Of a DNA stretch of 64,000 nucleotides, positions 2,082 to 47,333 are shown one piece after another (positions within the stretch are counted from its first letter, which is position 1; the number at the start of each line of letters is the position of its first letter). The DNA is taken from positions 2,466,489 to 2,530,488 of the forward strand of contig OY730441.1 in NCBI GenBank assembly GCA_963422665.1, read 5' to 3'. The notes under the pieces are model-generated. The model searched no databases, had not been told where the DNA came from, and saw only the letters and a program-made list of their open reading frames with translations. Source of the stretch: Alphaproteobacteria bacterium. Lineage in GTDB: Bacteria > Pseudomonadota > Alphaproteobacteria > Bin95. The position numbers and the translations under genes were made by a program.

Positions 2082-2098
2082 CGCACGCCTCCTTGCGT

Positions 2099-9175: not shown

Positions 9176-9188
9176 CGGACCCGTCCGC

Positions 9189-9554: not shown

Positions 9555-9582
9555 CTTCCGTCTCCTTTCGGGTTCGACATCT

Positions 9583-13244: not shown

Positions 13245-13247
13245 CGC

Positions 13248-16175: not shown

Positions 16176-16180
16176 CGCGC

Positions 16181-16453: not shown

Positions 16454-16468
16454 TCCTGCCTCCCGCCA

Positions 16469-18198: not shown

Positions 18199-18299
18199 CG
18201 GCTCGACGTCGGCCTGCCCGTCCTTGGCCGGTTCTGAACCTTCGTCGTAGCGCCCGCGGCCCGCCCCCACCGGCATGCCCCTGTCCCTTTCCGCGCCAC

Positions 18300-20595: not shown

Positions 20596-20626
20596 GTCGA
20601 AGATCCGCCGGCGACGCCGGCCTTTG

Positions 20627-21610: not shown

Positions 21611-21612
21611 CC

Positions 21613-23809: not shown

Positions 23810-23813
23810 CTCC

Positions 23814-27113: not shown

Positions 27114-27116
27114 CGG

Positions 27117-27656: not shown

Positions 27657-27668
27657 GTCCCTCTCATC

Positions 27669-28727: not shown

Positions 28728-30409
28728 TCCACCGCCTCCGCGCCCGCGACCAGCATCGGCTTGCCCGGAAGGGCGGCGCCCGGAACCCGCAGGTCCCCGC
28801 CCCGGCGTTCCTTGGCAGCCCCGAACACCGCCTTCGCCCCGGCGATCTCCGCGCCCTTCAGCATCGCGTCCGCCGGATCGACCCGGCCCTCGCCGACCGC
28901 GCGCCAGATCTTCCGCCCGATCGGAACCCCGCCCATCGCGCCTACCCAGTGGTTCCACGCGCCGACCGCATCCCGCCCCTGCACATGCCTCAGATAGCCG
29001 TCGTCCGGGACGATCCACTCCGCAACCGCAAGCGGGCGCACATAGCCCGCCCACGCCGCCAGCGAGAGCGCCGACTGGCCCGCCTTGCGGCAACTGGCGC
29101 AGCCCTCCGGATTGCGGTAGCGGACCCCCGGGCCCAGAAGCGACACCAACTCCTCCGGGAGGTCCCGGCCCTCCGGCAGCGCCGGCTGCGCGCATTCCGG
29201 ACAGAGCAGCGGCACAAGCGTCTGCTTCATCAGCAGGCGCACATTGCCGGGCTTCGTCACCTCCGACACCTCGACGCCGAGGTCCATCAGACGGAACAGG
29301 ATGCCGTTCGCCGTGTGCACGTGGATCGTCGTCCACACCTGGTGGCCGCTATCGATGAACTGCAGCACCTGCTGCGCGCCCATCTTGTCCCGGATCTCGC
29401 CCACCATCCCCGAGGCCGGATGCACCCGCACGAAATGCATCAGCGCCGCCGCAAACCCCAGACCCCGCTCCTCGCCAACGCCCCGGGTCGGAACCGCAAT
29501 CTGCACCGCCCCCGGTATGTCGTATTCGACCGGGTCCTCCAGCGTGATCATGTTGAGCCGACGCCCGTGCTCGCGCATCTGCAGGTTCAGATTCACCGCA
29601 AGCGTCGTCGACTTGCCGTCACCCGTCGTGCCGCCGATGAAGATGCCGCCGTATTTCGACATTCGGATCTCCCGGAACAGGCCCGCCACCTCCGCCGTGA
29701 ACCCAAGGTCCTCCAGAGACTTCCGGCCCCCGACCTGATCGCGGTAGAAGAGGCGCATGTAGAGGTGGTGGCCCTCCGGCTCGTGCGGACCCGCCTCGCA
29801 GCGCAACGCCGCGATCTCCTCCGGCAAGGGAAAGGTCTCCGAACGCCTCACGCTGAAACCCTGGAAGCTCGCACGCTGCAGCGAGGTCTGCCGCGAGCCC
29901 TCGTCCTTCACGAAGAACAGGAACCCGAACACCTGCTCGGCCTCCCGCACCGTCATCGCCGAACCCAGGGGCAGCTTCCGGTCGTTCACGATCGCGAACA
30001 CCCGGCAGTCGTCCGGACCCTTCTCCAGCACCACGTCCGAAGCCCGGGCCCTCGCCGCCTCCGTGAAGATCGCGACAAGCCCCTCCACGATCCGGGGGTT
30101 CACATCCAGGCTCTCGTCACGGACCCGGTTGCCGCGCCAGACCTCCGCAACCTCCTGGAGCGAGGCCGTCTCCTCCCGGAACTGGCCCCGAACCGCGCCC
30201 GTGCGCTGGAGCTCCACCAGCAGCGCGCGCAGCTCGACATCGTTCGCATAGCCGTCCGCGATCAGCACACGCCCGTCCGACCAGACCGCGCAGCGCTCCC
30301 GAAAGCGATCGTCCATCCGCTCCCAGCGCACCAGGCCCGACGGCATCACCTCCGGCGGCTTCTCCCTGAACAGCAGACGGCCCCACCATGTGTCCCGCCG
30401 GCTCGTCAT
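28724..30409 (-). CDS. Pilus assembly ATPase, GspE/PilB/PilQ(R64) family
   Basis: Walker A GGTTGDGKSTTLAVN; Walker B LEDPVEYD..; His-box region; tetracysteine-like CPECA...CASC; 561 aa. Confidence 0.8.
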   Translation of the reverse strand: MTSRRDTWWGRLLFREKPPEVMPSGLVRWERMDDRFRERCAVWSDGRVLIADGYANDVELRALLVELQRTGAVRGQFREETASLQEVAEVWRGNRVRDESLDVNPRIVEGLVAIFTEAARARASDVVLEKGPDDCRVFAIVNDRKLPLGSAMTVREAEQVFGFLFFVKDEGSRQTSLQRASFQGFSVRRSETFPLPEEIAALRCEAGPHEPEGHHLYMRLFYRDQVGGRKSLEDLGFTAEVAGLFREIRMSKYGGIFIGGTTGDGKSTTLAVNLNLQMREHGRRLNMITLEDPVEYDIPGAVQIAVPTRGVGEERGLGFAAALMHFVRVHPASGMVGEIRDKMGAQQVLQFIDSGHQVWTTIHVHTANGILFRLMDLGVEVSEVTKPGNVRLLMKQTLVPLLCPECAQPALPEGRDLPEELVSLLGPGVRYRNPEGCASCRKAGQSALSLAAWAGYVRPLAVAEWIVPDDGYLRHVQGRDAVGAWNHWVGAMGGVPIGRKIWRAVGEGRVDPADAMLKGAEIAGAKAVFGAAKERRGGDLRVPGAALPGKPMLVAGAEAVE

Positions 30410-31365
30410 CGCCCGGACCTCGACCGGTAGGGCAGGCGCCCGCTCGTCCAGCCCTTCACGCGCACGCCCGGAGGACGAGCCTCGACCGAAACCACCCTCA
30501 CGCCGCCCGGCAACCGGTCGCCCGCCTCCACCCGCCAGACGCTCTCGCCGTCCGTCACCGCCGCGCGCAGCGCCTCGCCCGATCCCATCACCGCGAACCA
30601 GCCATAAGCGCGGGGCGGCTCGGGCGGAGGCGCCTTCTTCTCCTTCCGCGCCGTCCTGGCCGCCTCGGCAGCCGCTTTCGCCTGCGCCTCCCGCGCGATC
30701 TCCGCACGGGCCGCCTCCAGAATCGCCGCATGCGCCCCGCGAACCCGCGCATCCGCCTCGCGGCGCACCGTCTCAAGCTTCAGAGCCTCCGCCGCCCTCG
30801 CGGCCGCAGACTTGTTCAGCGCCGCCGCAAGCTCGATCTCGGAGCCCACAAGCTCCTTCAGGATCGCCTGGCGGTCCCGGCACAGAACCAGCACCTCGCG
30901 CTCAAGCTCCAGAGCCTCGCTGAACTGCCCCTCGTTCACCGCGCTCGACAGCATCCGCACGATCGCCTCGCGCGGGCACTCGAAGGTCCGCAATATCGCG
31001 GGCTCATAAGCGATAACCGGAGGACCGGGAGGAGAAGCCGGGGCGGCAGCGGGAGGATCGGACTGCCGCCCCGGCAGACCGGCAGCGGACGGTGCGGCCT
31101 CATTATCCGCCGCCGCCGGTGCAGGCTGAGGATCGGCACCCGCGCCGGATAGCGCCGACGGAGGCTTGTATTCCGGAGGCAGGATATCGAACGACGATCC
31201 GCCGGGACCCTGCGCCGGGGCGATCGTCGCGGGCGCCGCCTCCCCGGGGCTCTGCGCCGAGGCCTCGCCGAACGACAGCACCGCCACCGACAGCGCGAGC
31301 GCCGACAGCAGGAGACCGCGACGGATGCCGGGCCCGACGGCCGCGTTTGCCCGACACGCCGAAAC
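30406..31365 (-). CDS. PilP-like pilus assembly protein (signal peptide, Pro/Ala-rich linker, coiled coil, C-terminal beta domain)
   Basis: C-terminal YGWFAVMGSGEALRAAVTDGESVWRVEAGDRLPGGVRVVSVEARPPGVRVKG resembles the secretin-binding PilP domain; N-terminal 185 aa of ORF 30406..31965 rejected (Ser/Ala-rich antisense of plus-strand genes); start probably GTG ~31365. Confidence 0.45.
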   Translation of the reverse strand, partial: VSACRANAAVGPGIRRGLLLSALALSVAVLSFGEASAQSPGEAAPATIAPAQGPGGSSFDILPPEYKPPSALSGAGADPQPAPAAADNEAAPSAAGLPGRQSDPPAAAPASPPGPPVIAYEPAILRTFECPREAIVRMLSSAVNEGQFSEALELEREVLVLCRDRQAILKELVGSEIELAAALNKSAAARAAEALKLETVRREADARVRGAHAAILEAARAEIAREAQAKAAAEAARTARKEKKAPPPEPPRAYGWFAVMGSGEALRAAVTDGESVWRVEAGDRLPGGVRVVSVEARPPGVRVKGWTSGRLPYRSRSGR

Positions 31366-31411
31366 CGGGGCCGACTTGACGTGGCCCCAAGCCTCGATAC
31401 AGGATGCGGTC

Positions 31412-31654
31412 ATGGCCTCATCCTTCGATACGCTTGCCGCCTCCGAGGCGATCGAAAATGCCGGTGCAGACTCCAGGCTCGCCAAGGTCATCGCCTCGCA
31501 GCTGCGGGTCGCCTCCGACGCCGGCGAACCCGTTACGCGCGCCGAACTCGACGCTGCACTGGCGGCGCTGGAAGCTCGCCTCACATGGCGTCTTATCGGC
31601 GCCATGGTCGCGCTTGCCGGCGTCATCATCGCCGCAGTCAAGCTGATCCCCTGA
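31412..31654 (+). CDS. Small tail-anchored protein (helical N-domain plus C-terminal TM ...VIIAAVKLIP), paralogue A
   Basis: 80 aa; balanced composition; ends in hydrophobic LIGAMVALAGVIIAAVKLIP; opposite strand to surrounding cluster. Confidence 0.5.
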   Translation: MASSFDTLAASEAIENAGADSRLAKVIASQLRVASDAGEPVTRAELDAALAALEARLTWRLIGAMVALAGVIIAAVKLIP

Positions 31655-31669
31655 TCCTCGTCTGAAACC

Positions 31670-31900
31670 ATGCCCGGCGGTCTTGATACCGCCGCCGTAG
31701 TCCGGGACCTGGAAGCTGCGGACATGGACCGCCGACAGGCCGAAGCCGTCGCCGCCGCGTGCCACAGGGCAGCAACTGCCGCACAGCCCATAACTCTCGA
31801 CCGGCTCGACGCCGCCCTCGCAAAACTGGAAGCGCGCATGATCCACTGGATGCTCGTTATCGCCGGAGCGGTCGTGGCCGCGGTCAAGCTGATCCCCTGA
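31670..31900 (+). CDS. Small tail-anchored protein, paralogue B
   Basis: 76 aa; same LDAALA.LEAR..W.L.I.A.V.AAVKLIP C-terminal pattern as 31412..31654. Confidence 0.5.
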   Translation: MPGGLDTAAVVRDLEAADMDRRQAEAVAAACHRAATAAQPITLDRLDAALAKLEARMIHWMLVIAGAVVAAVKLIP

Positions 31901-31978
31901 CAGAACAAGCCCGGCCCGGCAGAAGCAGGGGCCGCAAAAGGAAGAAGACGAAAAGCGCGCGACATCGCCCGGCAAGCC

Positions 31979-33301
31979 TCAGTCGATCTTGTCCGGCGTG
32001 TGCTGCGTCCACACCGCCGGTCTCATCCCGAGCTGATGCGCGAGCGTACGCCAGTGGACGCGTCTAGAACCCGCCGGGTCGTTCCTGACGGTCATCTCCA
32101 GAGTGCCCCGCGTCCAGCGCCAGACGCCGGCGAAATGCGGGCCCTCGACCAGGTTTCCGGCCTCGTCCACCACCGAGAACTTGCCCTTCGGATGGAACAC
32201 GAAACGCTTGTCCGCATAAGCCTCGCCCATGAAGGCCAACTCGCGCGGATACGGGCGCGCCAGAAACTCGTCCGTCAGCTGGAACGCCGCATGGCGATGG
32301 CCGGTGGGCCTGAACGGAAACGGGTAACCGACCATGTAAACCACTTCCCGACCGCCGATTCGGGCCGTGATCTTGTCTCCGCCCTGCGAACGTACCGGAA
32401 GAACGAACTCCTCTTCGGCGCCGTCCTCTCCGGCCGCCCAGAACTCTCCGATACCTTCCGTCCTGGCATAAACGAAACCGTTCCCTGCAGGCGATTTCAG
32501 GATGTTGCCCTCCTGGGCGGCTAGGTAGGCCTCAACCTCTTCCGCTGTGGTTGTCGGCGCCCCTCGCGACGCGCCAAGACCGGTCGTGCCGGGCGCCCTC
32601 AGATGCGAGCCCGGGAAATTCCGGATCGGTGCATCCGGGTCCTGACGGCGCAACTCCTCCATCTGGAGCGAGGTCTGCTTTTCGTTGATGGCCATGCCGA
32701 CAGGCAGGTCTAACCCGGGACAGGCGTCCGCCAAGGCGCGAGGCCAGGTATCTTGGACATGCCCTCTTTCTGAGCGAATCCAATAATCCTTGCCGCCTTT
32801 TCGGTGTCGGACGACTTCGCCCGCTAGGAAGCCTGTCGAGGGATCGTAGAAAAGCGGAAGATGCCGTGGCCTCCGGCCGTCGTTATACGAATTTCTGACA
32901 ACGGCTCCGATCAGCTTGGCCTGCTGGAGCACTTCCCACTTTACGTCCCTCTGGGCCAACCAAAGCGGGTCGCCATTTCTCTTCTTGTAGGCAAGGCAGC
33001 CGATACGTGATCCGTCTTTTGAGAAAATAAATCCTCGCACGATATTGCGGTAATTCGGATGATGGACGCCTTCGAATATCCACGCGCGACCGGACAACAG
33101 ACTGTCATAGAAGGCCTTGTCGTAGGGAATGAAATTCGGATGGGTGTCAATTGCGATATCCCTGACTGTCCCATGCGCCATGCAGGACGACAGCACGGCT
33201 CCCGCCAGAAGCAGCGCCAGCGCTCTTCCTGTCCCTTGTTTCAGCGTCGTCATTCTGTGATCTCCATTCGGTGTCTCTCGATCACAATGATTATCCGGCA
33301 T
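31979..33301 (-). CDS. Lipoprotein of unknown function, markedly lower GC than surroundings
   Basis: lipobox ALALLLAGAVLSSC; ~440 aa rich in K/N/F/Y; AT-rich stretches e.g. ~32990-33060. Confidence 0.5.
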   Translation of the reverse strand: MPDNHCDRETPNGDHRMTTLKQGTGRALALLLAGAVLSSCMAHGTVRDIAIDTHPNFIPYDKAFYDSLLSGRAWIFEGVHHPNYRNIVRGFIFSKDGSRIGCLAYKKRNGDPLWLAQRDVKWEVLQQAKLIGAVVRNSYNDGRRPRHLPLFYDPSTGFLAGEVVRHRKGGKDYWIRSERGHVQDTWPRALADACPGLDLPVGMAINEKQTSLQMEELRRQDPDAPIRNFPGSHLRAPGTTGLGASRGAPTTTAEEVEAYLAAQEGNILKSPAGNGFVYARTEGIGEFWAAGEDGAEEEFVLPVRSQGGDKITARIGGREVVYMVGYPFPFRPTGHRHAAFQLTDEFLARPYPRELAFMGEAYADKRFVFHPKGKFSVVDEAGNLVEGPHFAGVWRWTRGTLEMTVRNDPAGSRRVHWRTLAHQLGMRPAVWTQHTPDKID

Positions 33302-34229
33302 GCCGACCGGCCATGCCGGGCTTGCGCGCGAAAAAGCGTTGGACCCCGAACGCCCCTGCAAACCAGGCCCGAGTCAGCCGGCCGAACCGTTCCATCCACA
33401 CCAGCCTGTCCGCCGACAGCGTTCCGCTCCGCGCGGCCTCCGTCATCCGGCTCTCCTGGGCAGCCAGGATCCGGGCGTTCGGCAGACAGCGCGCCGACAG
33501 GTCCATGATCCCCAAGGCCTCAAGGCCCGCTGCCCGCAGCTTGTCGACATAGCCGGCCGGGCTCTCCAGATCGACCATCGACCAAGACTCGCAGATCGGT
33601 TGGATATACTCGCGGTATTCCTCCGGCGTGAGCGCCTGAGCCGGCATCCAGTCACTCCCCGCCAGACGCCCCCCGGGCCGGAGAATGCGCGCGCATTCCT
33701 TCAGGAGCCGCGCGCGGTCGGCCATGTGGCAGGCCCCGTCGATACTGACCACAACATCGACCGAACTGTCGGGCAGGCGGATTTCCTCCGAACAGTCCGA
33801 GAAGCGGAACTCGACCAGATGCTCCAACCCGTCGCTCTTCGCCAGTTCGCCGGCGGCTTCCAGCTGTTTCTCGCTGATATTCAGCCCGATGACCCTGCAG
33901 CCGAGCGTTCCGGCCAGGTGAAGCGCCGTTCCGCCGACCCCGCAGGCCGCATCGGCCACCACGTCTCCGGTGCCGATCCGCGCAGGACCGACCACTTCGC
34001 CGATCATCCTGACCACCGCCCTGTCGAGCAGGTCCCTGTCAAGCCGTCCCGCATCCGGGCCGTCCAGAACAAACGGCTCCTCACCGGGATCGAAGAGCCC
34101 GAAATGGAGATGGCGCGGATGCCAGCCGGACAGGTAATAGTCGCCGCCGTCGTAATGAGCGGCGACAGCCCTGGCCTGCCGTGACAGCGGAGCCTGATAG
34201 CTGTCCGGAGCTAACGCCTGTGCCTCCAT
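33291..34229 (-). CDS. Class I SAM-dependent methyltransferase of the cyclopropane-fatty-acid-synthase/mycolate-MT family
   Basis: AHYDGGDYYLSGW (HYDxxNxFY-type) motif; motif I VADAACGVGGTALHLA; 312 aa; 10 nt from the polyprenyl synthase gene. Confidence 0.7.
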   Translation of the reverse strand: MEAQALAPDSYQAPLSRQARAVAAHYDGGDYYLSGWHPRHLHFGLFDPGEEPFVLDGPDAGRLDRDLLDRAVVRMIGEVVGPARIGTGDVVADAACGVGGTALHLAGTLGCRVIGLNISEKQLEAAGELAKSDGLEHLVEFRFSDCSEEIRLPDSSVDVVVSIDGACHMADRARLLKECARILRPGGRLAGSDWMPAQALTPEEYREYIQPICESWSMVDLESPAGYVDKLRAAGLEALGIMDLSARCLPNARILAAQESRMTEAARSGTLSADRLVWMERFGRLTRAWFAGAFGVQRFFARKPGMAGRHAG

Positions 34230-34239
34230 CCTCTTGCTC

Positions 34240-35256
34240 CTAGTGACGGCGCTCGACGCAGAACGCCGCGAAGTCGTGCAGCGCCTCGCGCACCGGGCCG
34301 TCCGGAAAGAGAGCGAGAGCCTGCGCAGTGTCTTCCGCCCGGGCGCGGGCCTCGGCCAGCGTGTCCGCCAGCGCATCCCGCCGGTCCAGCAGCGCCAGCG
34401 CCCGCTCGAAGTCGCCGGGCCGCCGGTCGCCATCCTCGAAGGTTCGGCGCCAGAAGGCCCGTTCCTGCGCATCGCCGCGTTCGAATGCCAGAATGACCGG
34501 CAGCGTCGCCTTGCCCTCGGCAAAGTCGCCCCCGACCGCCTTCCCCAGTTCCGCCTGCCGGCCCGACCAGTCCAGGACGTCGTCGGCGAGCTGGAACGCG
34601 ATCCCCAGGTTCCGACCATAGGCCCCGAGAGCCGTTTCCGCTTCGCGCCCGGCGCCGGCGGCGACGGCCCCCAGCCGGCAGGCGGCGGCAAACAGGGCGG
34701 CAGTCTTGTCCTCGATGGCCTCCAGACAGGCCTCCACCCCCGCTCCGGGGCGGCCGGCATCCTGCATCTGGCGCAACTCGCCCTCGGCCATCGCCGACGT
34801 TGCCTCGACGAACAGCTCGAGCACCCCCGTCGGTCCGGCCTCTATCATCAACTGGAACGCGCGCCCGATAAGCCAGTCCCCGACCAGCACGCTTGCGCGG
34901 TTCCCCCAAAGCGCGTTGGCGCTGGCGACCCCGCGCCGCAAGGAACTCGCGTCCACGACATCGTCATGCAGCAGCGTGGCCATGTGGAAGACCTCGACGC
35001 TCGCCGCGAGCGTGACGGGCCGGCCCCCGGCCGCCCCGCAGAGGCGCGCGCATGTCAGGGTCAGGATCGGACGCAGGCGCTTGCCGCCCGCACGCGCGAT
35101 GTGGCCGCCCAGGCGCGGTATGAGCGTCGCCCCGGCTTCCATCCGCTCGGCGATCAGCGCCTCGACCCGATCCAGGTCAGTGCCCGCAAGAGACCGCAGC
35201 CCGGCAAGCGCGGACTGTGGCGCCAAAGGCGGCAGGGGAAACGCGGCGTCAGCCAT
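34240..35256 (-). CDS. ispB: trans-Polyprenyl diphosphate synthase (IspB/IspA family)
   Basis: FARM LLHDDVVD and SARM QLADDVLD aspartate-rich motifs; 338 aa from MADAAFPLPPL; 4 nt after the upstream secreted-protein gene. Confidence 0.8.
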   Translation of the reverse strand: MADAAFPLPPLAPQSALAGLRSLAGTDLDRVEALIAERMEAGATLIPRLGGHIARAGGKRLRPILTLTCARLCGAAGGRPVTLAASVEVFHMATLLHDDVVDASSLRRGVASANALWGNRASVLVGDWLIGRAFQLMIEAGPTGVLELFVEATSAMAEGELRQMQDAGRPGAGVEACLEAIEDKTAALFAAACRLGAVAAGAGREAETALGAYGRNLGIAFQLADDVLDWSGRQAELGKAVGGDFAEGKATLPVILAFERGDAQERAFWRRTFEDGDRRPGDFERALALLDRRDALADTLAEARARAEDTAQALALFPDGPVREALHDFAAFCVERRH

Positions 35257-35260
35257 CCCG

Positions 35261-36784
35261 CTACTCCCCGGCCTTTTCAACCAGCCAGCGGTCGTGAAGC
35301 CGATGGACCGCCCCGGCCATGATTTCGAAGGCCAGATCGTTCTCGCCCCTGCGGAACGCCGAGGCCGATGCGTCGATCTTCGCTTCCAGCCAGGCCCAAT
35401 CGGGGTGATCTTTCGGGATTGCCGCCACAATGGCGGGGGCTACCCGATAGTAGCCATCAACCATCGTACGCCGCTCGGGTGTAGCCTGCATGTAGGTGTC
35501 CCGGAACCGGCGCATCGCCGTCAGCGTCGGACCTTGGTTCGCTTCACCGCGCATCTCGACCACGGCGGTTGTCAAGAAGCAGGACCCACCATCACCGCCA
35601 CTATTCCCGACATCCATATCCTCTGGTTTACCCGTGGCATCGACGGTATCCATCGTTTCCTCGGCGGTACTGGTCGTCTCCTCTCCACCGCCACCGCCAT
35701 CACCATCACCATCACCGTCGCCGTCGCCGTCGCCGCTGGGGATGGGCGCGCAGTCCTCCTCCCTGCGCACCAGCAGCTTGGCACCGTTCACCCGGGCGAC
35801 CCGTCGGGTCGTGACGACCGGAGCCCTTGGGCGCACCCGGAAGTCGCGATATTCCGTGTTCTGCTCGTAATGCAGCGTGCAGCTTCCCGTCTCACCGGAA
35901 GGGCAGCTGCAGGAGCCCGTGGTCCGATGGACAGGGGCCGTCCTCCAGGCGATCACCGGGTCCGGGATCGGCGCGGGCGGCAGCGCCTGCGCATACTGGA
36001 AGGGACAGAGCCCCTCGGCATGACGCCATGGGCTGCACTCAGCCCGCGAGCCCAGCCCCGCCCGGAGGCTACAGTCGCGCGGCCAGAGATGCGCCGCACC
36101 CGGTGCCGTCGCCGAAAGATCCCGGCCTTGCGTTTCGCCCGCACCCAGAACGCCCGTCACCTGGATCGGAACCTGGCGCGCCTCGCGGAAGGTATCCGCC
36201 GGCGAGCCCGGACAGGCGACGTCCCGCGTCTCCGTCTCCCAGCGTATGCCCGTCACCGTACGGATCGGATCGGCGACCGCGCCCACCAGGCCCACACGGT
36301 CATCGCCCGTCGAGGGAACGCCTATGCAGGTGGGCAGCGCCGTGTCGTCGCGTCCATGCGCCCCCCGCGCGATGCGCGTGTTCGCCAGGATCACATGCAG
36401 GCCCGTCCGGCCGCCGCCATAGCGCACGGGCGCGACCTGGACCTCCCTGTGGCCCCGGCCCAGGCCCTTCAGCTCGTCCTGTGCCGCATAGACAGCCAGC
36501 ACCCCCTGGCAGTAGCGCGCCGTCAGGCCCCGCTCCGTCCAGGACGAAAGCCACCAGGACCCGGAAGGGGGCGCGGCGAGCCCGATCCATTCATCTTCCC
36601 AGAGATTCGCGGTGTCCGTCACCCGGATGCGAGCCTCCACGCTCTGCCAGGCGCTCTGGATCGCAACCGCATACGCCAGCGCCTCCTGCTGGCGCGTCCG
36701 GTCCGGATCGCCCGTCTGGGCCGCCGCGCCCGACGCGATCCCCACAAATGCCAGCGCCAGAAGCGCCGACCCCGTCCGTTTCAT
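35261..36784 (-). CDS. Secreted Cys-rich protein containing a (Gly-Asp)n tract
   Basis: signal peptide MKRTGSALLALAFVGIASGAAAQ; GDGDGDGDGDGDGGGGGEE encoded by a hexanucleotide repeat; ATGA overlap with upstream gene. Confidence 0.5.
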   Translation of the reverse strand: MKRTGSALLALAFVGIASGAAAQTGDPDRTRQQEALAYAVAIQSAWQSVEARIRVTDTANLWEDEWIGLAAPPSGSWWLSSWTERGLTARYCQGVLAVYAAQDELKGLGRGHREVQVAPVRYGGGRTGLHVILANTRIARGAHGRDDTALPTCIGVPSTGDDRVGLVGAVADPIRTVTGIRWETETRDVACPGSPADTFREARQVPIQVTGVLGAGETQGRDLSATAPGAAHLWPRDCSLRAGLGSRAECSPWRHAEGLCPFQYAQALPPAPIPDPVIAWRTAPVHRTTGSCSCPSGETGSCTLHYEQNTEYRDFRVRPRAPVVTTRRVARVNGAKLLVRREEDCAPIPSGDGDGDGDGDGDGGGGGEETTSTAEETMDTVDATGKPEDMDVGNSGGDGGSCFLTTAVVEMRGEANQGPTLTAMRRFRDTYMQATPERRTMVDGYYRVAPAIVAAIPKDHPDWAWLEAKIDASASAFRRGENDLAFEIMAGAVHRLHDRWLVEKAGE

Positions 36785-38085
36785 CCCGAACTCCCCGTTG
36801 TGCGATCCGCCGCCGCGTCTGCCGCGCCCGCCTGCGTCAGCGCGTCGAACTCGCTCTCCAGCATGGTGAACGGCCGTGTCCGCCTGACCCCGAACCGCCA
36901 GCCACCCTCTTCGCTCCAGGAGACCGAGGCGACCTCGACGCCCTCCATGGCGGACAGCATCGCCACCGCTTCCCTGAGCGGCCTGCCGGTGCCAAGCACC
37001 GCTTCCGCGTCCGCGCCGAACTCCGTGTATTCGATATCGAAGCCGCGAAGCGCCAGCGTCCGGTCCAGAAGGTCACGGAACTGCGTCGGCTCCAGCCAGC
37101 GGCCGGCCTTCGGGTCGTGCCGCTCGAGCACCGAAGGCAGAGGGCTCAACGCGATCGACGCACCCTTGTCGTCGATATCCGCCACCGGCCATCCGGCCAG
37201 CATGTCCTTCGCCATCGGGCCGTAGACGCGCGGATCGAGGCCCTCCCTGAGCGCCCAGCGGACCTCCAGCACGGGCCGACCCATCAGGCCGCCATACGAA
37301 ATCCCCGTCTCGCTCCCGGCAAACCTCGGATGGCAGACCACGGCCCGCCGGTCGAACCCCGCCATGCGCACCCTGAGGCCGTCCCAACCCGCCTGACACG
37401 ACCGCAGGAACGCCGGCGTCACCACGACCGCCTCGACCGTCGGCGGCTCCTCCGGTTCCGGCTTCCCGTACCCGGCCCACTCCCGAAGGTCTTCATAGTG
37501 GAACAAGCCCGCATATGCCGCGCCCCCGGCAACCAGCAACAGCACCGCCGCCCAGGCCCCGACCCGCGACAGGCTCCCCTTCGGGGCCTCGGCCAGGACC
37601 GGCAGGTCCTTCGCAGCCGCCGCGATACTCGATGCTTCCACGGTCGTCGCCTCCTCGAACAGCCCCGCCAGACCCGGCGTGGCGAGGATGCGGACACCTT
37701 GGGTGGCGCCCGTCCCGAGCGCCCTCTGCGCCTCCGCAGCCGCCTGAAACACGCCGTCGCCCCCGGGAAGGATCCCGCCGCCCGAACTGCGCACGACCCC
37801 GACCCGCTTCGGCCCATCGTCCTCGCCGTCCTCCTCGATGAACGCCGTCCAGGGCGACCTGCCCTCCGGGCGCTTGCGCATGAACTCCACCAGCGCGCCC
37901 GCAAGGGGCGGGAGACCGCCCGGATTCTCGATACCGCCCAGGAACCCCGTCTGCCCGCCGAGCTCGACCGTCCAGCGATGGCCCCGGTCGCGCGCCGCCT
38001 TCGCCGCCTTGCCCCCGCGCAGGACTTCCCGCTCCCAGTCGAGACTGGCCGCGAAACGGTGACCGCCGACCACAAGCACGCTCAT
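36781..38085 (-). CDS. Bitopic pilus biogenesis protein, PilO(R64)/BfpC-like
   Basis: ~434 aa from MSVLVVGGHRFAASLDWE; cytoplasmic N-domain, single TM VGAWAAVLLLVAGGAAYAGLF, periplasmic C-domain; between secretin and the rest of the pil genes. Confidence 0.4.
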   Translation of the reverse strand: MSVLVVGGHRFAASLDWEREVLRGGKAAKAARDRGHRWTVELGGQTGFLGGIENPGGLPPLAGALVEFMRKRPEGRSPWTAFIEEDGEDDGPKRVGVVRSSGGGILPGGDGVFQAAAEAQRALGTGATQGVRILATPGLAGLFEEATTVEASSIAAAAKDLPVLAEAPKGSLSRVGAWAAVLLLVAGGAAYAGLFHYEDLREWAGYGKPEPEEPPTVEAVVVTPAFLRSCQAGWDGLRVRMAGFDRRAVVCHPRFAGSETGISYGGLMGRPVLEVRWALREGLDPRVYGPMAKDMLAGWPVADIDDKGASIALSPLPSVLERHDPKAGRWLEPTQFRDLLDRTLALRGFDIEYTEFGADAEAVLGTGRPLREAVAMLSAMEGVEVASVSWSEEGGWRFGVRRTRPFTMLESEFDALTQAGAADAAADRTTGSSG

Positions 38086-39899
38086 CCGCCAGCCTCCCGG
38101 GCCGCGCCGGCTGCCGCCGGAGAGACCGCATCCCGGAGGGCCGGGTGCGCCGGGGCCGCATTGCCGCTCTCGACCTTCGCGACAGGCCCGCCGGCCGGGA
38201 ACCCGGCGCCGAGCCTCCGCTCCGATATGCCGAGCGGCGTCCCGATATCGGCCGTCACCAGCAGCGCCGTCTCGACCCGCGCGATATCCGTGTCCGCGCC
38301 GCCCTCCGGCAGCGGCACCGCCGGATGGAACGTGCCCGACCGCTCGCCCGACGACGACCGGTCGCGGAAGCCCGTGAGGAGAAGCGTCTCGCCCCTCGCG
38401 ATACGCTGCGTCACCACGATCGCGCGCCGACCGCCCGACGGAAGCTGGATCCGGTTGCCCGCAGCCCCGAAGGCCGCGAACTCCGGACGGTCCTGAATGG
38501 TGGCCGTAATACGAGCCAGGACCTCGTCCGGCGCCACGATCCGTGCGACGAAACTCAGCCCGAAGCCGGACGACACCGTTCCCGGCGTCAGCTCCACCGC
38601 CCACACGCCGTCCTCGATCGTGGTGCTGACCTTCTGCAGATACGCCTGGTCGAACAGGTCGTAGAACTGCGCCGGGCGCCCGTTCAGGGTCGGCACATCC
38701 ACCGACAGCACCCGCGAGGCCGTGCCGACCTTGCGGAGCGCATTCACTGTCGCGCGCAGGCTCGAGGCCCCGACCGATGTCGGCTTCACCACGGAAATCG
38801 TGCCGCCGTCGAAGCCGACCACGAAGTTGGACCCGAACGCCTCCGGCAGGATGCCCGTCAGCCCCACTTCGTAGTCCGAGCCCTTGTCGAAGCGCACCGA
38901 GTAGAGATGCACCGAGAGCGTCACCGGGCGCAGCACATGCCGGTTCACATGCTCCAGATAGGCCCGCACCCGCTCGACCGCACGCGGCAGGCCGGTCGCC
39001 GTCACCGTCGCGGACGCCGCCGAAACCGAGACCGTCCCTTCCGGGCCCGCCGCCGCAACCGCCTGCGGGCCGATCTCCTGCCAGGGGTCGTAGGTCATCT
39101 CCGAGGAGATCGACTGCGACGAGGATCCGGCCGTCGCTTCGCCGCCCGCGCCGACCGTCGTCGTGGTCACATTGTATTTCTGGCTGCCGAGCAGGGCATG
39201 GACGGCGAAGATGCGCGTCTCGGAGCGCACGACCTCGACGGTCGCGGTCCCGTCATCGTATTGCCACCGGTAGCCCCCAGCCTGCGTCCAAGCGTCCAGC
39301 AATCGGTCGAGCGGACCCGACCACACGCCGGCCTCGCCCGCCAGCTCGTCGGACCAGGACGAGAGCCAGCCCGAGACGAAGCCGCTTCTGTTGAACGCGG
39401 CTCGAACGCGTGCGTCACCCGACGCTTCCCCCGCCTGCGCCCCGCTCTGGACTTCGATGCCCGCCTCGACGCCGGCCAGGCTCTCGCCCGTGCCCAGCCA
39501 TTCGGCCCCGACCAGCCGGACTTCGATCCCGGCTGCATCCGATATCCGCCGCGCCAGCACCTCGTCGCCCGGCTCGTCGCCCAGCGTGACCACGATCCCG
39601 GTCTCCGAGCGCAGGTCCTCGGGCAGGAGAGAGCGATCCTCCGCCACCGGCCGCAGCGCCAGATAGGGGTCCCTGGATTGCGTGAGAGAGCGGAAGCCGG
39701 GCCTGTCCGGCTCCAGCGAGCCGACCGAACCCAGACGGGCCTCTACGGACGCTGCGTCCCGCGCGACCTCAGCCTGGTCGAACCAGCCGCAGCCGCCAAG
39801 CAGGACAGCACCCAGCGACAGCGAAAGCAGCATGCTTCCGACACGCGCCGATGACGGCCTGTTGACAACATGCGGCGAATCCAACAGCTTCCCTCCCAT
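38082..39899 (-). CDS. Lipoprotein secretin (PilN of R64/BfpB-like)
   Basis: lipobox LSLGAVLLGGC; C-terminal secretin domain ...VPTLNGRPAQFYDLFDQAY...ETALLVTADIGTPLG; first gene of the minus-strand cluster. Confidence 0.65.
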   Translation of the reverse strand: MGGKLLDSPHVVNRPSSARVGSMLLSLSLGAVLLGGCGWFDQAEVARDAASVEARLGSVGSLEPDRPGFRSLTQSRDPYLALRPVAEDRSLLPEDLRSETGIVVTLGDEPGDEVLARRISDAAGIEVRLVGAEWLGTGESLAGVEAGIEVQSGAQAGEASGDARVRAAFNRSGFVSGWLSSWSDELAGEAGVWSGPLDRLLDAWTQAGGYRWQYDDGTATVEVVRSETRIFAVHALLGSQKYNVTTTTVGAGGEATAGSSSQSISSEMTYDPWQEIGPQAVAAAGPEGTVSVSAASATVTATGLPRAVERVRAYLEHVNRHVLRPVTLSVHLYSVRFDKGSDYEVGLTGILPEAFGSNFVVGFDGGTISVVKPTSVGASSLRATVNALRKVGTASRVLSVDVPTLNGRPAQFYDLFDQAYLQKVSTTIEDGVWAVELTPGTVSSGFGLSFVARIVAPDEVLARITATIQDRPEFAAFGAAGNRIQLPSGGRRAIVVTQRIARGETLLLTGFRDRSSSGERSGTFHPAVPLPEGGADTDIARVETALLVTADIGTPLGISERRLGAGFPAGGPVAKVESGNAAPAHPALRDAVSPAAAGAAREAGG

Positions 39900-39939
39900 G
39901 CGTTCCTGCTGGGAAAACTGTGGTGGTAGGAAAACGCTG

Positions 39940-40536
39940 GGCGACCCGCCCGACTACGAACCGCCGGCGGAGCGCAGCATCGCCGGGCTGGCCGGCGGCG
40001 GCGATCCGCGCGCGGCGCTCCTCGACGCCATGCTGGCCGACGGGGGCCGGGCGCTGATCTACTTCCCGCTGCTCGGCTATGCCGACGGCGATTTCGAGAT
40101 GCTGCGCACGGTGCTGGAGCATCCGTTGTCCATGCTCAGCCTCTCGGACGGCGGCGCCCATTGCGGGCTTATCTGCGACGCCAGTTCGCCCACCTACATG
40201 CTGAGCTACTGGGCGCGCGACCGGCAGCGGGGGCCGCAACTGGCGCTCGAACACGCCGTCAGGCTCCAGACGAGGGGCACGGCGGAGGCCTACGGGCTGA
40301 ACGACCGCGGCCTCCTGCGCGCGGGCTTCAAGGCCGACCTCAACCTGATCGACTTCGACGCGCTCCACCTGCATGCGCCCGTCATGGTGCGCGACCTGCC
40401 GGCCGGCGGACGGCGCCTGGTGCAGCGCGCCGACGGCTATGTCGCCACCTTCGTCTCGGGCGAGGCGGCCTGGGAGCGGGGCGAGGCGACGGGCGCCATG
40501 CCGGGCCGCCTGCTGCGCGGCCCACAGGCGGCGTGA
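39940..40536 (+). pseudogene. 3-prime remnant (~200 aa) of an N-acyl-D-amino-acid deacylase (D-aminoacylase) gene truncated by the island
   Basis: C-terminal amidohydrolase-3 region ...GFKADLNLIDFDALHLHAPVMVRD...; N-terminal ~280 aa absent, frame runs straight into the secretin gene. Confidence 0.55.
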
Positions 40537-40558: not shown

Positions 40559-41164
40559 ATGATCAGGGCAGCCGATCTCGATCATTTCGTCCGTGCGCTC
40601 GGCCGCGCCGTGCGGGAGGCGGCGGCGCCGGGCGGGCCGGAGGCCGCGCTGGCGGCGCGCATATTCGAGGCGCTGGAAACGCCCGGCAGACCGCCGCCCG
40701 CCGGTGTGCGCCCGCGCCGCCCGGTCCCGGCAGCCGCGCTGGACGCCGCCTTCGCGCTTGCCGCCAGGGGGCCGGAGCCGGTGCAGCATGTGGCGGGCGC
40801 GCTCCGGGCGATGGACCCCCGGCTCGCCTGGGGTCCGCGGCTCGGCAGCGAGGACGGCGACCCCGCCTTTCGGGACGCCCACGCCAATGCTGTGGTGGCG
40901 GGCGCGGACGGGCTGGAACGGCGCGAGGACGTGCGCATCGGGGTGAGCCTCGTCGCGCCGCATACCGACTATGTGAAGCACAACCATCCGCCGGAGGAGC
41001 TCTATTTCGTGCTCGCGCCCGGCGACTGGTGGCGCGAGGACCTGGGCTGGCGGGCGCGGCCGGCGGGCGGCATCCAGCACAACCCGCCCCATGCGTGGCA
41101 CGCCATGCGCACGGACGAAACGCCGCTGCTCGCCGTCTGGTGCCTGTGGACGGCGGGCGCCTGA
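40559..41164 (+). CDS. Cupin-fold protein (DMSP-lyase-like cupin?)
   Basis: HTDYVKHNHPPEELYFVLAPGDWW ... HNPPHAWHAMRTDETPLLAVWCLW; 201 aa. Confidence 0.45.
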   Translation: MIRAADLDHFVRALGRAVREAAAPGGPEAALAARIFEALETPGRPPPAGVRPRRPVPAAALDAAFALAARGPEPVQHVAGALRAMDPRLAWGPRLGSEDGDPAFRDAHANAVVAGADGLERREDVRIGVSLVAPHTDYVKHNHPPEELYFVLAPGDWWREDLGWRARPAGGIQHNPPHAWHAMRTDETPLLAVWCLWTAGA

Positions 41165-46364: not shown

Positions 46365-47333
46365 CTAGAGCGACGCGCCATCCTCTTCCGCCGGCGCCGT
46401 CGCGCCCGTTTGCGCGGTGATGACGGCGTAGTGCTCCGGGCGGCGGTGGGCGGCGAAGTCGAAGATCGTCTCCTTGTTGAAACGGCCTTCCTCCAGGTCG
46501 CATTCACAGGCGATCACCTCATCCCCCAGCGTGTGCGCCTGGGCCACGATCTCCCCCGAGGGCGCGACAATGCAGCTGCCGCCCATCAGGTCGCAGCCTT
46601 CCTCATGGCCGGCCTTGGCGGCGCCGACCACCCAGCAGCCGTTCTGGTAGGCCCCGGCCTGCATGCTGAGATGGTTGTGCAGCATCCGCACATGGTGCGG
46701 CTCCGGCCCGAGCGCATTCGCGGCCGGCGTGTTGTAGCCGAGCATCACCAGCTCGACGCCCTTCATGCCCATCACCCGGAAGGTCTCCGGCCAGCGGCGG
46801 TCGTTGCAGAGCGCCATGCCCATCACGCCGCCCATCGTCCGCCAGACCGGGAAGCCGAGGTCGCCGACCTCGAAATAGCGTTTCTCCAGATGCTGCCAGG
46901 GCCGCGCCGGGTCGTATTCGCTGTGGCCGGGCAGATGCACCTTGCGGTATTTGCCGACGAGGCGCCCCTGCCGGTCCACGAGCACGGATGTATTGAAACG
47001 CCGTTCGCGCCCGTCTTCGCGGATGAGCTCCGCATAGCCGAGATAGAAGCCGACGCCCAGTTCGGCCGCGGCGTCGAACAGCGGCCGCGTCTCCGGCCCC
47101 GGCATCTCCGCTTCGTAGAAGGCGTCCAGCTCCGCGCGGTCCTCCATGAACCAGCGCGGGAAAAAAGTGGTGAGCGCGAGCTCGGGAAACACGACCAGCC
47201 GCGCGCCGCGCCCCTGCGCCTCGCGCATCATCCCGACGAGGCGCCCGACAACCCGCGAGCGCGGCTCGCTGCGGGCGACGGGACCCATCTGCGCGGCGGC
47301 GACGGTGAGTCTGCGCGGGGCGGCGTTCGGCAT
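46365..47333 (-). CDS. N-carbamoyl-D-amino-acid amidohydrolase (D-carbamoylase, CN-hydrolase family)
   Basis: near motif-for-motif match to Agrobacterium DCase: VFPELALTTFFPRW, EMPGP, FNTSVLVD, GKYRKVHLPGH, HLEKRYFE, CNDRRWPE, SMQAGAYQNG, CIVAPSGEIVA. Confidence 0.85.
   Translation of the reverse strand: MPNAAPRRLTVAAAQMGPVARSEPRSRVVGRLVGMMREAQGRGARLVVFPELALTTFFPRWFMEDRAELDAFYEAEMPGPETRPLFDAAAELGVGFYLGYAELIREDGRERRFNTSVLVDRQGRLVGKYRKVHLPGHSEYDPARPWQHLEKRYFEVGDLGFPVWRTMGGVMGMALCNDRRWPETFRVMGMKGVELVMLGYNTPAANALGPEPHHVRMLHNHLSMQAGAYQNGCWVVGAAKAGHEEGCDLMGGSCIVAPSGEIVAQAHTLGDEVIACECDLEEGRFNKETIFDFAAHRRPEHYAVITAQTGATAPAEEDGASL

What the first reader, a model, noticed from the sequence alone, without database searches (positions are those of the whole stretch)
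39880..40536. Island boundary: the secretin operon begins where a D-aminoacylase gene is truncated
The plus-strand frame after ~39,940 encodes only the C-terminal ~200 aa of an N-acyl-D-amino-acid deacylase. The missing N-terminal ~280 aa would lie where the minus-strand secretin gene starts. A D-carbamoylase (46365..47333) and an aminotransferase lie nearby. This suggests the ~40-kb T4SS/pilus element inserted into, or recombined at, a D-amino-acid/hydantoin utilisation locus.
Basis: partly seen in the sequence, partly recalled or inferred. Interest (0 to 1): 0.6.

Follow-up and report, generated by a model that had tools for sequence, protein, structure and literature searches.

The report
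Conjugative island splits a D-aminoacylase gene
A conjugative element at least 46 kb long, built like a plasmid, has inserted inside a D-aminoacylase gene of an uncultured alphaproteobacterium; the finding marks its right-hand junction, an ordinary kind of event but in a rarely seen class of element whose integration enzyme was not found.

Summary
Window 39937-40533 encodes residues 375-573 of a 573-aa Amidohydro_3 D-aminoacylase. Relatives without the island carry the whole gene just upstream of the same cupin/BVMO/CN-hydrolase/aminotransferase neighbourhood.

Homology to them starts at window 39935. The missing 375 codons were found in the same sequencing run and on the same 4.59-Mb contig (L099). 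They abut the element's other end, which carries RepC-like, ParA and two ParB-like genes. This is therefore a simple insertion, not a deletion or a naturally short gene.

Both junctions carry CGCT. The two ends are imperfect inverted repeats. Perfect 9-mers (CTGTGGTGG / CCACCACAG) lie exactly 10 nt either side of a central CT.

The same left end sits at three other chromosomal sites in other lineages. All four sites share GG at -12/-11 and G-CT at the crossover. Both gene halves are still open, with dN/dS like intact copies, so the insertions are recent or recurrent.

The element is an IncI/Dot-Icm-type (MPF_I) conjugation system with a type IVb thin pilus. It is at least 46 kb, not about 40 kb. 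No integrase was found in the 46 kb sampled. The "hydantoin locus" label is not supported.

The parts
39937..40536 (+). 3' remnant of the D-aminoacylase (Amidohydro_3, 'N-acyl-D-Asp/D-Glu deacylase') gene: codons 375-573 plus the stop codon
   Evidence: It is 91% identical to the full-length P0125, 92.4% nt identical to L004, and has no stop or frameshift.
39898..40536 (+). Chimeric 212-aa ORF as called by gene finders: 13 codons of island DNA (MRSCWENCGGRKT) fused to the remnant. It lacks the N-terminal HxH metal-binding motif.
   Evidence: The gene call of 212 aa in L006/L007 maps onto the window. The sequence was read. The HxH motif (DVHTHYDG) is seen only in the N-terminal half of P0125.
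39935..39938 (.). CGCT: the 4 bp present at both junctions (attR copy). The CT at 39937-39938 is the centre of symmetry of the joined ends.
   Evidence: L004 positions 9377-9380 are retained at both L099:5817-5820 and window 39935-39938.
39905..39936 (.). Right terminal inverted repeat of the element: CCTGCTGG-GAAAA-CTGTGGTGG-TAGGA-AAACG. The perfect 9-mer arm is at 39918-39926.
   Evidence: The reverse complement of the 9-mer (CCACCACAG) lies 10 nt inside the left end in L099. The joined ends fold as a 22-bp imperfect palindrome with z = -5.9.
38082..39899 (-). PilN-family type IVb pilus secretin, the first gene inside the right end. The likely real start is ~39833.
   Evidence: TIGR02520 E 1.2e-41 (below cut-off) and a weak PF00263 match. 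The N-terminus was read.
1..39934 (-). Right-hand 39.9 kb of the integrated conjugative element; it continues past the left edge of the window. Contents: T4CP 135-2081; DotH/IcmK ~11300-12238; DotI/IcmL ~12258-12780; IcmT/TraK 16181-16468; DotB/TraJ 16469-17836; TraI (PF16932) within 18300-19943; TcpQ-like within 19684-20715; PilS pilin 27117-27668; PilQ-type ATPase 28724-30772; methyltransferase 33291-34841; polyprenyl synthase 34240-35439; CFI-box-CTERM protein 35261-36784.
   Evidence: The stretch has no homology to the island-free L004. GC skew is uniformly negative up to ~40 kb.
40559..41164 (+). Cupin (DMSP_lyase-like), the first intact chromosomal gene to the right of the insertion. It was used as the anchor to find relatives.
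   Evidence: PF16867 E 1.9e-35. The exact sequence is on the 4,588,027-bp contig and in a 128-member 90% cluster.
46365..47333 (-). CN_hydrolase (named N-carbamoyl-D-amino-acid hydrolase by NCBI in cluster members). It is conserved in island-free relatives and is not part of the element.

Best explanation
Window 39935-39938 is the right junction (attR) of a conjugative element of at least 46 kb that inserted at codon 374/375 of a 573-aa D-aminoacylase gene and inactivated it. Each gene half lacks residues that the enzyme's fold is expected to need. The element has a plasmid-like build. At the left end are genes for a RepC-like initiator, ParA and two ParB-like proteins. At the right end are an IncI/Dot-Icm-type (MPF_I) type IV secretion system and a type IVb thin pilus, ending with pilN. 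Shown: the insertion, both junctions, the 4-bp CGCT at each junction, the inverted-repeat ends, the empty site in relatives, and use of at least four different chromosomal targets by the same left end. Inferred: integration is a conservative, sequence-directed recombination between the joined ends of the circular element and short chromosomal sites of the form GG-N10-G-CT, with strand exchange at or next to the central CT. The joined ends form an imperfect palindrome centred on that CT. The symmetry (9-mers exactly 10 nt from CT on both sides, which fits a 2-bp centre better than the 4-bp repeat) fits a dimeric site-specific recombinase best. A serine-type enzyme with a 2-bp crossover is my first guess. 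The enzyme would be encoded in the unsampled middle of the element. The confidence of 0.8 covers the insertion and junction structure (about 0.95) and the general recombinase model (about 0.5-0.6); the serine-type guess alone is about 0.35-0.4.
For: The intact gene and the same right-hand synteny occur in L003/L004 and in L008/L009. The homology break is at 39935. The source-genome left junction L099 reads SDR, then a 377-aa N-terminal remnant, then RepC-like, ParA and ParB-like genes. The proteins of L099 and the ORF just left of the window all lie on the same 4,588,027-bp contig as the window's cupin and CN-hydrolase. The 9-mer inverted repeat is symmetric about CT; an exact 9-nt inverted repeat occurs in 1% of random 40 x 40 nt window pairs, before the symmetry is even required. 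The joined ends fold at -19 kcal/mol against -8.1 +/- 1.9 for shuffles. The same left end occurs at three other loci (L097/L100, L106, L108), and all four sites share G-12, G-11, G-1 and CT. Each target abuts an ORF that runs up to or reads through the junction. For L108 the read-through, and for L106 the truncated 3' end, are my reading of approximate coordinates rather than computed results. dN/dS of the disrupted halves is 0.03-0.15, the same as between intact copies, and there are no stops. Conjugation genes.
Against: No tyrosine, serine or DDE recombinase was found in the 39.9 kb inside the right end. None was found in the 6 kb inside the left end of the source. None was found in the 10-13 kb inside the left end in four related lineages. 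About 90% of ICE integrases sit in the first 5% of the element (PMC5587801). The middle of the element in the source genome could not be read, because the 4.59-Mb contig was not retrievable. The right ends of the elements at the other three sites were not recovered. Covariation of the inverted repeat and the 2-bp core are therefore untested. Excision and the circular form were not demonstrated.
Confidence: 0.8

Rival explanations
1. Relaxase-mediated integration. The element has no integrase. Instead its TrwC-type (MOB_F) relaxase, arriving covalently bound to the transferred strand, joins it to chromosomal sequences that resemble its nic region, as R388 TrwC does experimentally.
For: A TrwC relaxase gene lies about 9.7 kb inside the left end of a related element (L108). 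No integrase lies near either end in any lineage. The target left halves resemble the element's own right arm (G-12, G-11, G-1, CT), and in L108 also TAGAAACG against TAGGAAAACG. That is what a relaxase needing nic-proximal sequence would give. TrwC integrates into 17-bp oriT-like targets (PMC3264647), and relaxase-dependent ICE integration is mentioned in PMC5587801. From memory only: the left end TGTCT-TAGCC resembles the R388 nic core TGTCT/ATAGCC.
Against: The crossover lies in the loop between two symmetric arms. From memory, MOB_F relaxases nick about 8 nt 3' of a hairpin, not in its loop. The TGTCT-TAGCC motif is 7 nt away from the observed junction. TrwC was not shown in the source element. 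In L108 the relaxase gene is about 10 kb from the end and is interrupted by an IS.
Confidence: 0.15
2. DDE-type transposition. The inverted-repeat ends and the CGCT are terminal inverted repeats and a 4-bp target-site duplication made by a transposase, as in the ICEs TnGBS2 and ICEA.
For: The ends are imperfect inverted repeats of about 27-32 nt, with a 4-bp direct repeat at both junctions. Several target sites are used. ICEs using DDE enzymes are known (PMC5587801).
Against: With a 4-bp duplication the inverted repeats are not flush or symmetric: 10 nt from junction to 9-mer on the left against 8 nt on the right. With a 2-bp CT centre they are exactly symmetric. At the second site only GCT is shared with the element. 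No transposase was found near the ends; the IS genes seen in L106/L107/L108 are secondary insertions.
Confidence: 0.1
3. There was one ancient insertion, inherited vertically or moved between strains by homologous recombination of the flanks, rather than recurrent site-specific insertion at this codon.
For: The same junction occurs in lineages whose flanks differ by about 6-7% (L099 against L089/L096). The left-end island DNA differs by a similar amount (86-94%). L006 has a flank 99.96% identical to the window but a diverged island interior, which shows recombination inside the island.
Against: dN/dS between the disrupted N-terminal halves is 0.03-0.15, like intact genes, and neither half has a stop or frameshift. 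Most divergence therefore accrued while the gene was under selection. Island-free relatives (L004, L008) are interleaved at similar distances.
Confidence: 0.25
4. The fragment is a genuine short amidohydrolase-domain protein, or the truncation is a deletion or assembly artefact unrelated to the island.
For: The top 120 database homologues of the fragment are all 200-362 aa. A few of them are on long contigs.
Against: Most of those are on contigs of about 1-4 kb. The two long-contig cases examined (L001, L002) are noisy long-read assemblies; in L002 the N-terminal part is present in another frame. Close relatives are 573 aa. The junction is identical in three independent assemblies (window, L006, L007), and the other half of the gene is present in the same genome.
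Confidence: 0.02

Closest known systems
Integrative and conjugative elements (ICEs) and integrated conjugative plasmids inserted inside protein-coding genes
   Same: A self-transmissible gene set (T4SS, coupling protein, pilus) sits in the chromosome. It is delimited against an empty site in relatives, has short repeats at both junctions, and inactivates the target gene.
   Different: There is no integrase at either edge, whereas about 90% of ICE integrases lie in the first 5% of the element (PMC5587801). The repeat is only 4 bp. The element carries a theta-type RepC-like initiator and ParA/ParB-like genes at one end. It uses several degenerate targets rather than one tRNA or gene.
IncI1 plasmid R64 / Dot-Icm type IVB secretion (MPF_I) with the PilL-V thin pilus
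   Same: Homologues of TraI, TraJ/DotB, TraK/IcmT, DotI/IcmL, DotH/IcmK and TraW-like are present, together with PilN secretin, a PilQ-type ATPase, PilS pilin and weak PilP/PilV matches.
   Different: It is chromosomally integrated, and MPF_I ICEs are described as extremely rare (PMC5587801, PMC3158045). No plasmid in PLSDB matches the T4CP above 30% or the RepC-like protein above 27% identity. No shufflon repeats or Rci were seen. The relaxase in a related element is TrwC (MOB_F); from memory, R64 uses the MOB_P relaxase NikB.
Large-serine-recombinase elements that split genes (SPbeta in spsM, skin in sigK, Tn5397; 'multi-targeting' LSRs) - from general knowledge
   Same: The insertion is intragenic. 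The inferred attP is an imperfect palindrome centred on a non-palindromic dinucleotide. attB has only partial dyad symmetry (9 of 24 positions) and little identity to attP beyond the core. Related pseudo-sites are used.
   Different: No Resolvase/Recombinase-domain gene was found in the sampled 46 kb, so this is a resemblance of the sites only.
TrwC (R388) relaxase-catalysed integration at oriT-like targets (PMC3264647)
   Same: A conjugative element with a TrwC-family relaxase (in relative L108) and no visible integrase. The targets share short sequence with one end of the element.
   Different: From memory, the site geometry (crossover in the loop of a symmetric palindrome) is unlike the R388 oriT. 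The relaxase was not shown for the element in this window.

Membership tests
N-acyl-D-amino-acid deacylase (Amidohydro_3), functional full-length gene | Complete ~573-aa protein including the N-terminal HxH metal-binding motif | tested here: not met
   Only residues 375-573 are encoded in the window. The N-terminal 375 codons lie at the other end of the element (L099).
N-acyl-D-amino-acid deacylase (Amidohydro_3), functional full-length gene | Orthology of the fragment to the family's C-terminal region | tested here: met
   91% identity to P0125 residues 365-573. Pfam PF07969 profile positions 359-469 of 472. A distant match to PDB D-aminoacylase 1M7J, residues 387-480.
Integrative and conjugative element | Conjugation machinery: T4SS plus type IV coupling protein | tested here: met
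   T4CP (PF02534, E 4e-40), DotB/TraJ, IcmT/TraK, DotI/IcmL, TraI and DotH/IcmK.
Integrative and conjugative element | Delimited insertion relative to an empty site, with repeats at both junctions | tested here: met
   Empty site in L003/L004/L008/L009; attL in L099; attR in the window; CGCT at both junctions.
Integrative and conjugative element | Element-encoded integrase (tyrosine, serine or DDE) | tested here: inconclusive
   None in the window's 39.9 kb, none in the 6 kb of L099, and none in the 10-13 kb at the left end of four relatives. The middle of the element was not sampled.
Integrative and conjugative element | Relaxase and oriT | tested here: inconclusive
   No relaxase in the window. 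A TrwC (PF08751) gene lies in the related element L108.
MPF_I (IncI/Dot-Icm-like) mating-pair formation type | At least 4 type-specific genes (criterion of PMC3158045: TraIKLMNPQRWY set) | tested here: met
   T4SS_TraI PF16932 (E 1.5e-56), IcmT/TraK NF038220, DotI/IcmL PF11393 (TraM-like), DotH/IcmK PF12293, TraW-like PF28212 (weak) and DotB/TraJ TIGR02524/02525. These were matched with Pfam/NCBIfam models, not the CONJscan profiles.
Type IVb thin pilus (R64 Pil system) | PilN secretin, PilQ ATPase, PilS pilin, PilP, PilV | tested here: inconclusive
   PilN TIGR02520 scores 142.9 bits against a 287.65-bit cut-off. The PilQ-type ATPase hits only GspE-family models. PilS PF08805 E 7e-8. PilP (E 3e-4) and Shufflon_N (E 9e-4) are weak.
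Large-serine-recombinase integration | attP with dyad symmetry about a 2-bp crossover shared with attB | tested here: met
   The 9-mers lie exactly 10 nt either side of CT, and CT is within the shared CGCT. This geometry is also compatible with other recombinases.
Large-serine-recombinase integration | Gene with Resolvase (PF00239) plus Recombinase (PF07508) domains in the element | tested here: inconclusive
   Not found in any sampled part. The central part is unsampled.
Hydantoin / D-amino-acid utilisation gene cluster | Hydantoinase or dihydropyrimidinase, hydantoin racemase and a permease clustered with the D-carbamoylase | tested here: not met
   The genes between and around the two enzymes are a cupin, a BVMO, DUF983, a CxxCxxCC protein, a YgjP-like protein, DUF2161, an aminotransferase and TauE. 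Upstream in relatives are an SDR, Hda and PerM.

The most novel reading that the evidence does not exclude
This may be one member of a widespread, so far undescribed family of chromosomally integrated MPF_I (IncI/Dot-Icm-like) conjugative elements in uncultured Alphaproteobacteria. These elements keep a RepC/ParAB plasmid module and integrate without a conventional edge-located integrase. Integration would be by the TrwC-type relaxase or by an unrecognised recombinase, acting on a palindromic joint of the element ends and short GG-N10-G-CT chromosomal motifs inside genes.
Probability: 0.2. Interest if true: 0.7.

Novelty: new variant of a known kind. Interest (0 to 1): 0.45.

Why it matters
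The boundary itself is a textbook result: a mobile element splits a gene, and both junctions and the empty site are now defined to the base. Three things lift it above routine.

First, MPF_I conjugation systems are described as extremely rare among ICEs. Here one is integrated, and its coupling protein has 528 homologues at E <= 1e-20 in environmental data but nothing above 30% identity among sequenced plasmids.

Second, the element keeps plasmid replication and partition genes at one end and shows no integrase near either end. Its ends nevertheless form a precise symmetric palindrome, and it uses several intragenic targets that share a short motif.

Third, the exact attB, attL and attR sequences make excision, circularisation and target choice directly testable. 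Tests can use reads from run ERR11641160 or synthetic substrates.

Tried and rejected
(1) The homologue search with the fragment gave at most 64% identity and only short proteins, which at first suggested a short family. This was a database effect. The 90% cluster holding the close full-length relatives is represented by an N-terminal fragment (P0122) that does not overlap the query.

(2) I checked the short homologues on long contigs (L001, L002). These are noisy long-read assemblies; the frameshift was shown directly only for L002.

(3) I tried to read the source 4.59-Mb contig through exact-protein look-ups. It was never returned, so the centre of the element stays unseen.

(4) PLSDB searches by DNA and by protein found no close plasmid relative.

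(5) IMG/VR scans with the T4CP and the RepC-like protein found nothing.

(6) A related island (82% nt identity) in GCA_022820525.1 (L091) was examined as a possible second case at the same locus. It lies about 100 kb from that genome's CN-hydrolase locus, which lacks the cupin, BVMO and D-aminoacylase genes. Its 206-aa tyrosine recombinase is too small and too far from any recognisable end to call it the integrase.

(7) I looked for a shufflon or Rci next to the PilV-like gene. No convincing repeat set or recombinase was found.

(8) A sigma-70 promoter and terminator scan of the junction found nothing.

(9) I first took the window's extra 3.2 kb at 50-53 kb to be an IS66 element, as in L006. 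It is an ABC transporter.
Full report
1. THE OBSERVATION

The window has about 70% G+C. GC skew is uniformly negative from 1 to ~40 kb and near zero after that.

The + strand ORF ending at 40536 matches only the C-terminal end of Pfam Amidohydro_3 (profile 359-469 of 472, E 3.5e-16). The minus-strand gene that starts opposite it (38082-39899) is a PilN-family type IVb pilus secretin. Its TIGR02520 match (E 1.2e-41) is below the family cut-off, and its Pfam Secretin match is weak.

2. IS THE GENE REALLY TRUNCATED?

A first homologue search with the fragment returned only 200-362-aa proteins at 64% identity or less.

It does not. Most of those hits are on contigs of about 1-4 kb. Two on long contigs (L001, L002) come from noisy long-read assemblies. 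In L002 the N-terminal part is present in another frame. For L001 I infer the same from other split genes in the locus.

An exact-sequence look-up of the neighbouring cupin (40559-41164) showed that it lies on a 4,588,027-bp contig. It belongs to a 128-member 90% cluster that also holds 573-aa D-aminoacylases (P0125, P0133).

In two relatives (L003 and L004, contigs of 0.63 and 5.6 Mb) the gene order is: purN, purM, a 382-aa ORF, CDP-alcohol phosphatidyltransferase, PerM, Hda, SDR, D-aminoacylase (573 aa), cupin, BVMO, DUF983, a CxxCxxCC protein, a YgjP-like protein, Xre/RES, DUF2161, CN_hydrolase, aminotransferase, TauE. Two GTDB species representatives (L008 and L009, uncultured Alphaproteobacteria) also carry the complete gene.

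blastn of L004 against the window starts at L004:9377 = window:39935 and then runs syntenic to ~55.2 kb. Nothing from the left flank of L004 is present in the window. Codon 375 is at 39937-39939. The window therefore keeps residues 375-573 and lacks 374-375 codons, not ~280.

3. WHERE IS THE OTHER HALF?

P0122, the representative of that cluster, is a 377-aa protein. It follows the D-aminoacylase for 375 residues and then ends in LS-stop. Its contigs (L089, L090) continue for ~70 bp of unrelated DNA. A metagenome scan for that 25-mer found L096, which has the same junction plus 3.5 kb. It also found L097 and L098, where the same DNA abuts a different flank.

The first gene inside this end is a RepC-like initiator (RP-C N- and C-terminal domains). 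It is followed by ParA, two ParB-like genes and a ribonucleotide reductase.

A homologue search with that RepC-like protein found P0321 on the 4,588,027-bp contig. Its Logan contig L099 comes from run ERR11641160, the same run as L007 and L088, which match the window exactly. L099 reads: DUF2066, CDP-OH-P transferase, PerM, Hda, SDR, Amidohydro_3 of 377 aa, then RepC-like, a 147-aa ORF, ParA, ParB-like, ParB-like and a 166-aa ORF.

The remnant (P0333), the island genes of L099 and the 70-aa ORF just left of the window are all on the same 4,588,027-bp contig as the window's cupin and CN-hydrolase. The event is therefore a simple insertion. Its length is at least 39,934 + 215 + 6,035 bp, or about 46.2 kb, with an unsampled middle.

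4. ANATOMY OF THE JUNCTIONS

- Empty site (L004): GGCATGTTCCCG-CT-GGGCGACCCGCC.
- attL (L099): GGCATGTTCCCG-CT-CCTATCCTAGCCACCACAGCCGGCAGG.
- attR (window): CCTGCTGGGAAAACTGTGGTGGTAGGAAAACG-CT-GGGCGACCCGCC.

Four bases (CGCT; L004 9377-9380) are present at both junctions. The ends are imperfect inverted repeats. A perfect 9-mer (CTGTGGTGG at 39918-39926, CCACCACAG in L099) lies exactly 10 nt from the CT on each side. It is flanked by TAGGA/TCCTA and CCTGCTGG/CCGGCAGG.

An exact 9-nt inverted repeat occurs in 1% of random pairs of 40-nt windows (50 of 5000), before symmetry is even required. The joined ends fold as a 22-bp imperfect hairpin (-19 kcal/mol; shuffles -8.1 +/- 1.9; z = -5.9). The crossover lies in the 11-nt loop.

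If the 4-bp CGCT is treated as a target duplication, the arms are asymmetric (10 against 8 nt). With CT as the centre they are symmetric.

5. TARGET CHOICE

The same left end occurs at three further chromosomal sites:

- next to a CoA-transferase / Liv-type ABC cluster (L097, L098, L100 and four more contigs);
- after a dCache-guanylate cyclase gene (L106, a 2.2-Mb contig);
- inside a cyclase-family gene near lpxC, bamD, recN and ligA (L108, a 1.6-Mb contig).

The four left half-sites are:

- TTCGCCGGCATGTTCCCG|CT
- TATAGCGGCAGGTCGAGG|CT
- CCGCCCGGCTGGCACATG|CT
- CGCGGAGGTGTAGAAACG|CT

All have G at -12, -11 and -1 and the CT. So do both arms of the element. In each case an ORF runs up to or reads through the junction. 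The read-through in L108 and the truncated 3' end in L106 are my reading of approximate coordinates. The motif was read off after the fact, from four sites in G+C-rich DNA, so it is suggestive rather than proven. One island-free relative (L003) has the synonymous variant CCCC-TT-GGGC at the site.

6. AGE

Both halves are open, with no stop or frameshift. dN/dS is as follows:

- between disrupted N-terminal halves: 0.13-0.15 (L099 against L089 and L096) and 0.03 (L089 against L096);
- for the window's C-terminal half against intact genes: 0.12-0.15;
- between intact genes: 0.01-0.24.

The divergence therefore accumulated under selection. This points to recent and probably independent insertions at the same codon in lineages about 6% apart. 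Exchange of the whole locus by homologous recombination is the alternative.

L006 has a flank 99.96% identical to the window and the same junction. Its island interior falls to 88% and then 75% identity about 430-560 bp in, and it carries different cargo. The islands therefore recombine or replace one another at this site.

7. WHAT THE ELEMENT IS

From the right end inward, the window contains:

- PilN;
- two unknown genes;
- a CFI-box-CTERM protein, a polyprenyl diphosphate synthase and a SAM methyltransferase;
- a weak PilP match, a PilQ-type ATPase and PilS pilin;
- a weak Shufflon_N/PilV match and a TcpQ-like protein;
- TraI (PF16932), DotB/TraJ, IcmT/TraK, DotI/IcmL, DotH/IcmK and a TrbI-like protein;
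- a 995-aa unknown protein, a TraW-like protein and a 729-aa membrane protein;
- a VirD4-type coupling protein at 135-2081.

This meets the published rule of at least 4 type-specific genes for MPF_I (PMC3158045), though it was tested here with Pfam/NCBIfam models.

MPF_I systems are described as extremely rare among ICEs (PMC5587801, PMC3158045). The coupling protein has 528 homologues at E <= 1e-20, nearly all from metagenome assemblies. No PLSDB plasmid matches the T4CP above 30% or the RepC-like protein above 27% identity.

8. MECHANISM

Shown: the insertion, the junction structure and multiple targets.

Inferred: conservative, sequence-directed recombination between the palindromic joint of a circular form and GG-N10-G-CT sites. 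The symmetric geometry about a non-palindromic dinucleotide, and an attB that is only weakly related to attP, are most like serine-integrase sites. That comparison rests on general knowledge.

Against this, I found no serine, tyrosine or DDE recombinase in three places. The first is the 39.9 kb at the right end. The second is the 6 kb at the left end of the source. The third is the 10-13 kb at the left end in four relatives. About 90% of ICE integrases sit at the very edge of the element (PMC5587801).

A TrwC relaxase about 9.7 kb inside L108 keeps relaxase-mediated integration (PMC3264647) alive as a rival. A DDE transposase is a weaker rival. The identity of the enzyme is the main open point.

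9. THE 'HYDANTOIN LOCUS'

The D-aminoacylase and the CN-hydrolase are conserved neighbours at 5.8 kb in island-free relatives. Six unrelated genes on both strands separate them, and no hydantoinase, racemase or permease is present. I would not call this a hydantoin-utilisation cluster.

10. VERDICT

The finding is real and its core interpretation is right. It is a base-precise right junction of an integrated conjugative element that split a D-aminoacylase gene.

As a boundary it is ordinary. The element class (integrated MPF_I with RepC/ParAB, no edge integrase, palindromic joint, multiple intragenic targets) is unusual enough to merit follow-up. I score interest at 0.45 and novelty as a new variant of a known kind.

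Noticed in passing
window 1-39934; The element's coupling protein has 528 homologues at E <= 1e-20, almost all from ENA/JGI/Logan metagenome assemblies, many on Mb-sized contigs. No PLSDB plasmid matches it above 30% identity. Integrated MPF_I elements may be common in uncultured Alphaproteobacteria, although they are reported as extremely rare among ICEs.
   Followed up: partly
L006 1-8012 against window 31000-39934: A metagenome contig has a chromosomal flank 99.96% identical to the window and the same junction. Its island drops to 88% and then 75% identity about 430-560 bp inside. It carries radical-SAM, GNAT and 'SPM'-domain genes where the window has a CFI-box-CTERM protein, a polyprenyl synthase and a methyltransferase. 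The cargo inside the pil operon has been swapped.
   Followed up: partly
window 33291-36784 (-): Three cargo genes sit between pilN and the rest of the pilus genes. They are a SAM methyltransferase, an octaprenyl-diphosphate-synthase-like gene and a 507-aa CFI-box-CTERM protein with a (GD)n/G-rich linker. This is unusual content for a thin-pilus operon.
   Followed up: no
window 50022-53077 (-): An ABC transporter (ATPase, BPD_transp_2 permease, Peripla_BP_4 binding protein) is present here. It is absent from L004, and in L006 an IS66 transposase occupies the position. This is a second small variable spot just right of TauE.
   Followed up: partly
window 44837-45154 (-): Relatives carry an Xre/RES toxin-antitoxin pair between the YgjP-like gene and DUF2161. 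The window (and L006) instead has a 105-aa coiled-coil protein with repeats of the form LREEMRGEMNGLREEIRNEISGLRGEMNELR.
   Followed up: no
L003 ~9376-9381: One island-free relative has the synonymous variant CCC-TTG (CCCC-TT-GGGC) in place of CCG-CTG at the insertion codon, so it lacks the CT core. This is a natural test case for whether the core dinucleotide is needed.
   Followed up: no
L108 14627-21647: A related element carries HicA and ParE toxins, two SSB genes and a TrwC (MOB_F) relaxase split by an IS, about 9.7 kb from its left end. MOB_F combined with an MPF_I transfer system is an unusual pairing. From memory, IncI plasmids use the MOB_P relaxase NikB.
   Followed up: partly
(database behaviour): The 90% protein cluster that holds the close relatives mixes the 201-aa cupin, 573-aa D-aminoacylases and the 377-aa remnants. 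It is represented by the N-terminal remnant. This hid all close full-length relatives from the first homologue search.
   Followed up: yes
window 59059-62017: G+C drops to 61-65% at 60-62 kb. A DDE_Tnp_1-associated protein (59059-60297) and an N6/N4 DNA methylase (61082-62017) lie there. This may be another mobile or defence region at the right edge of the window.
   Followed up: no
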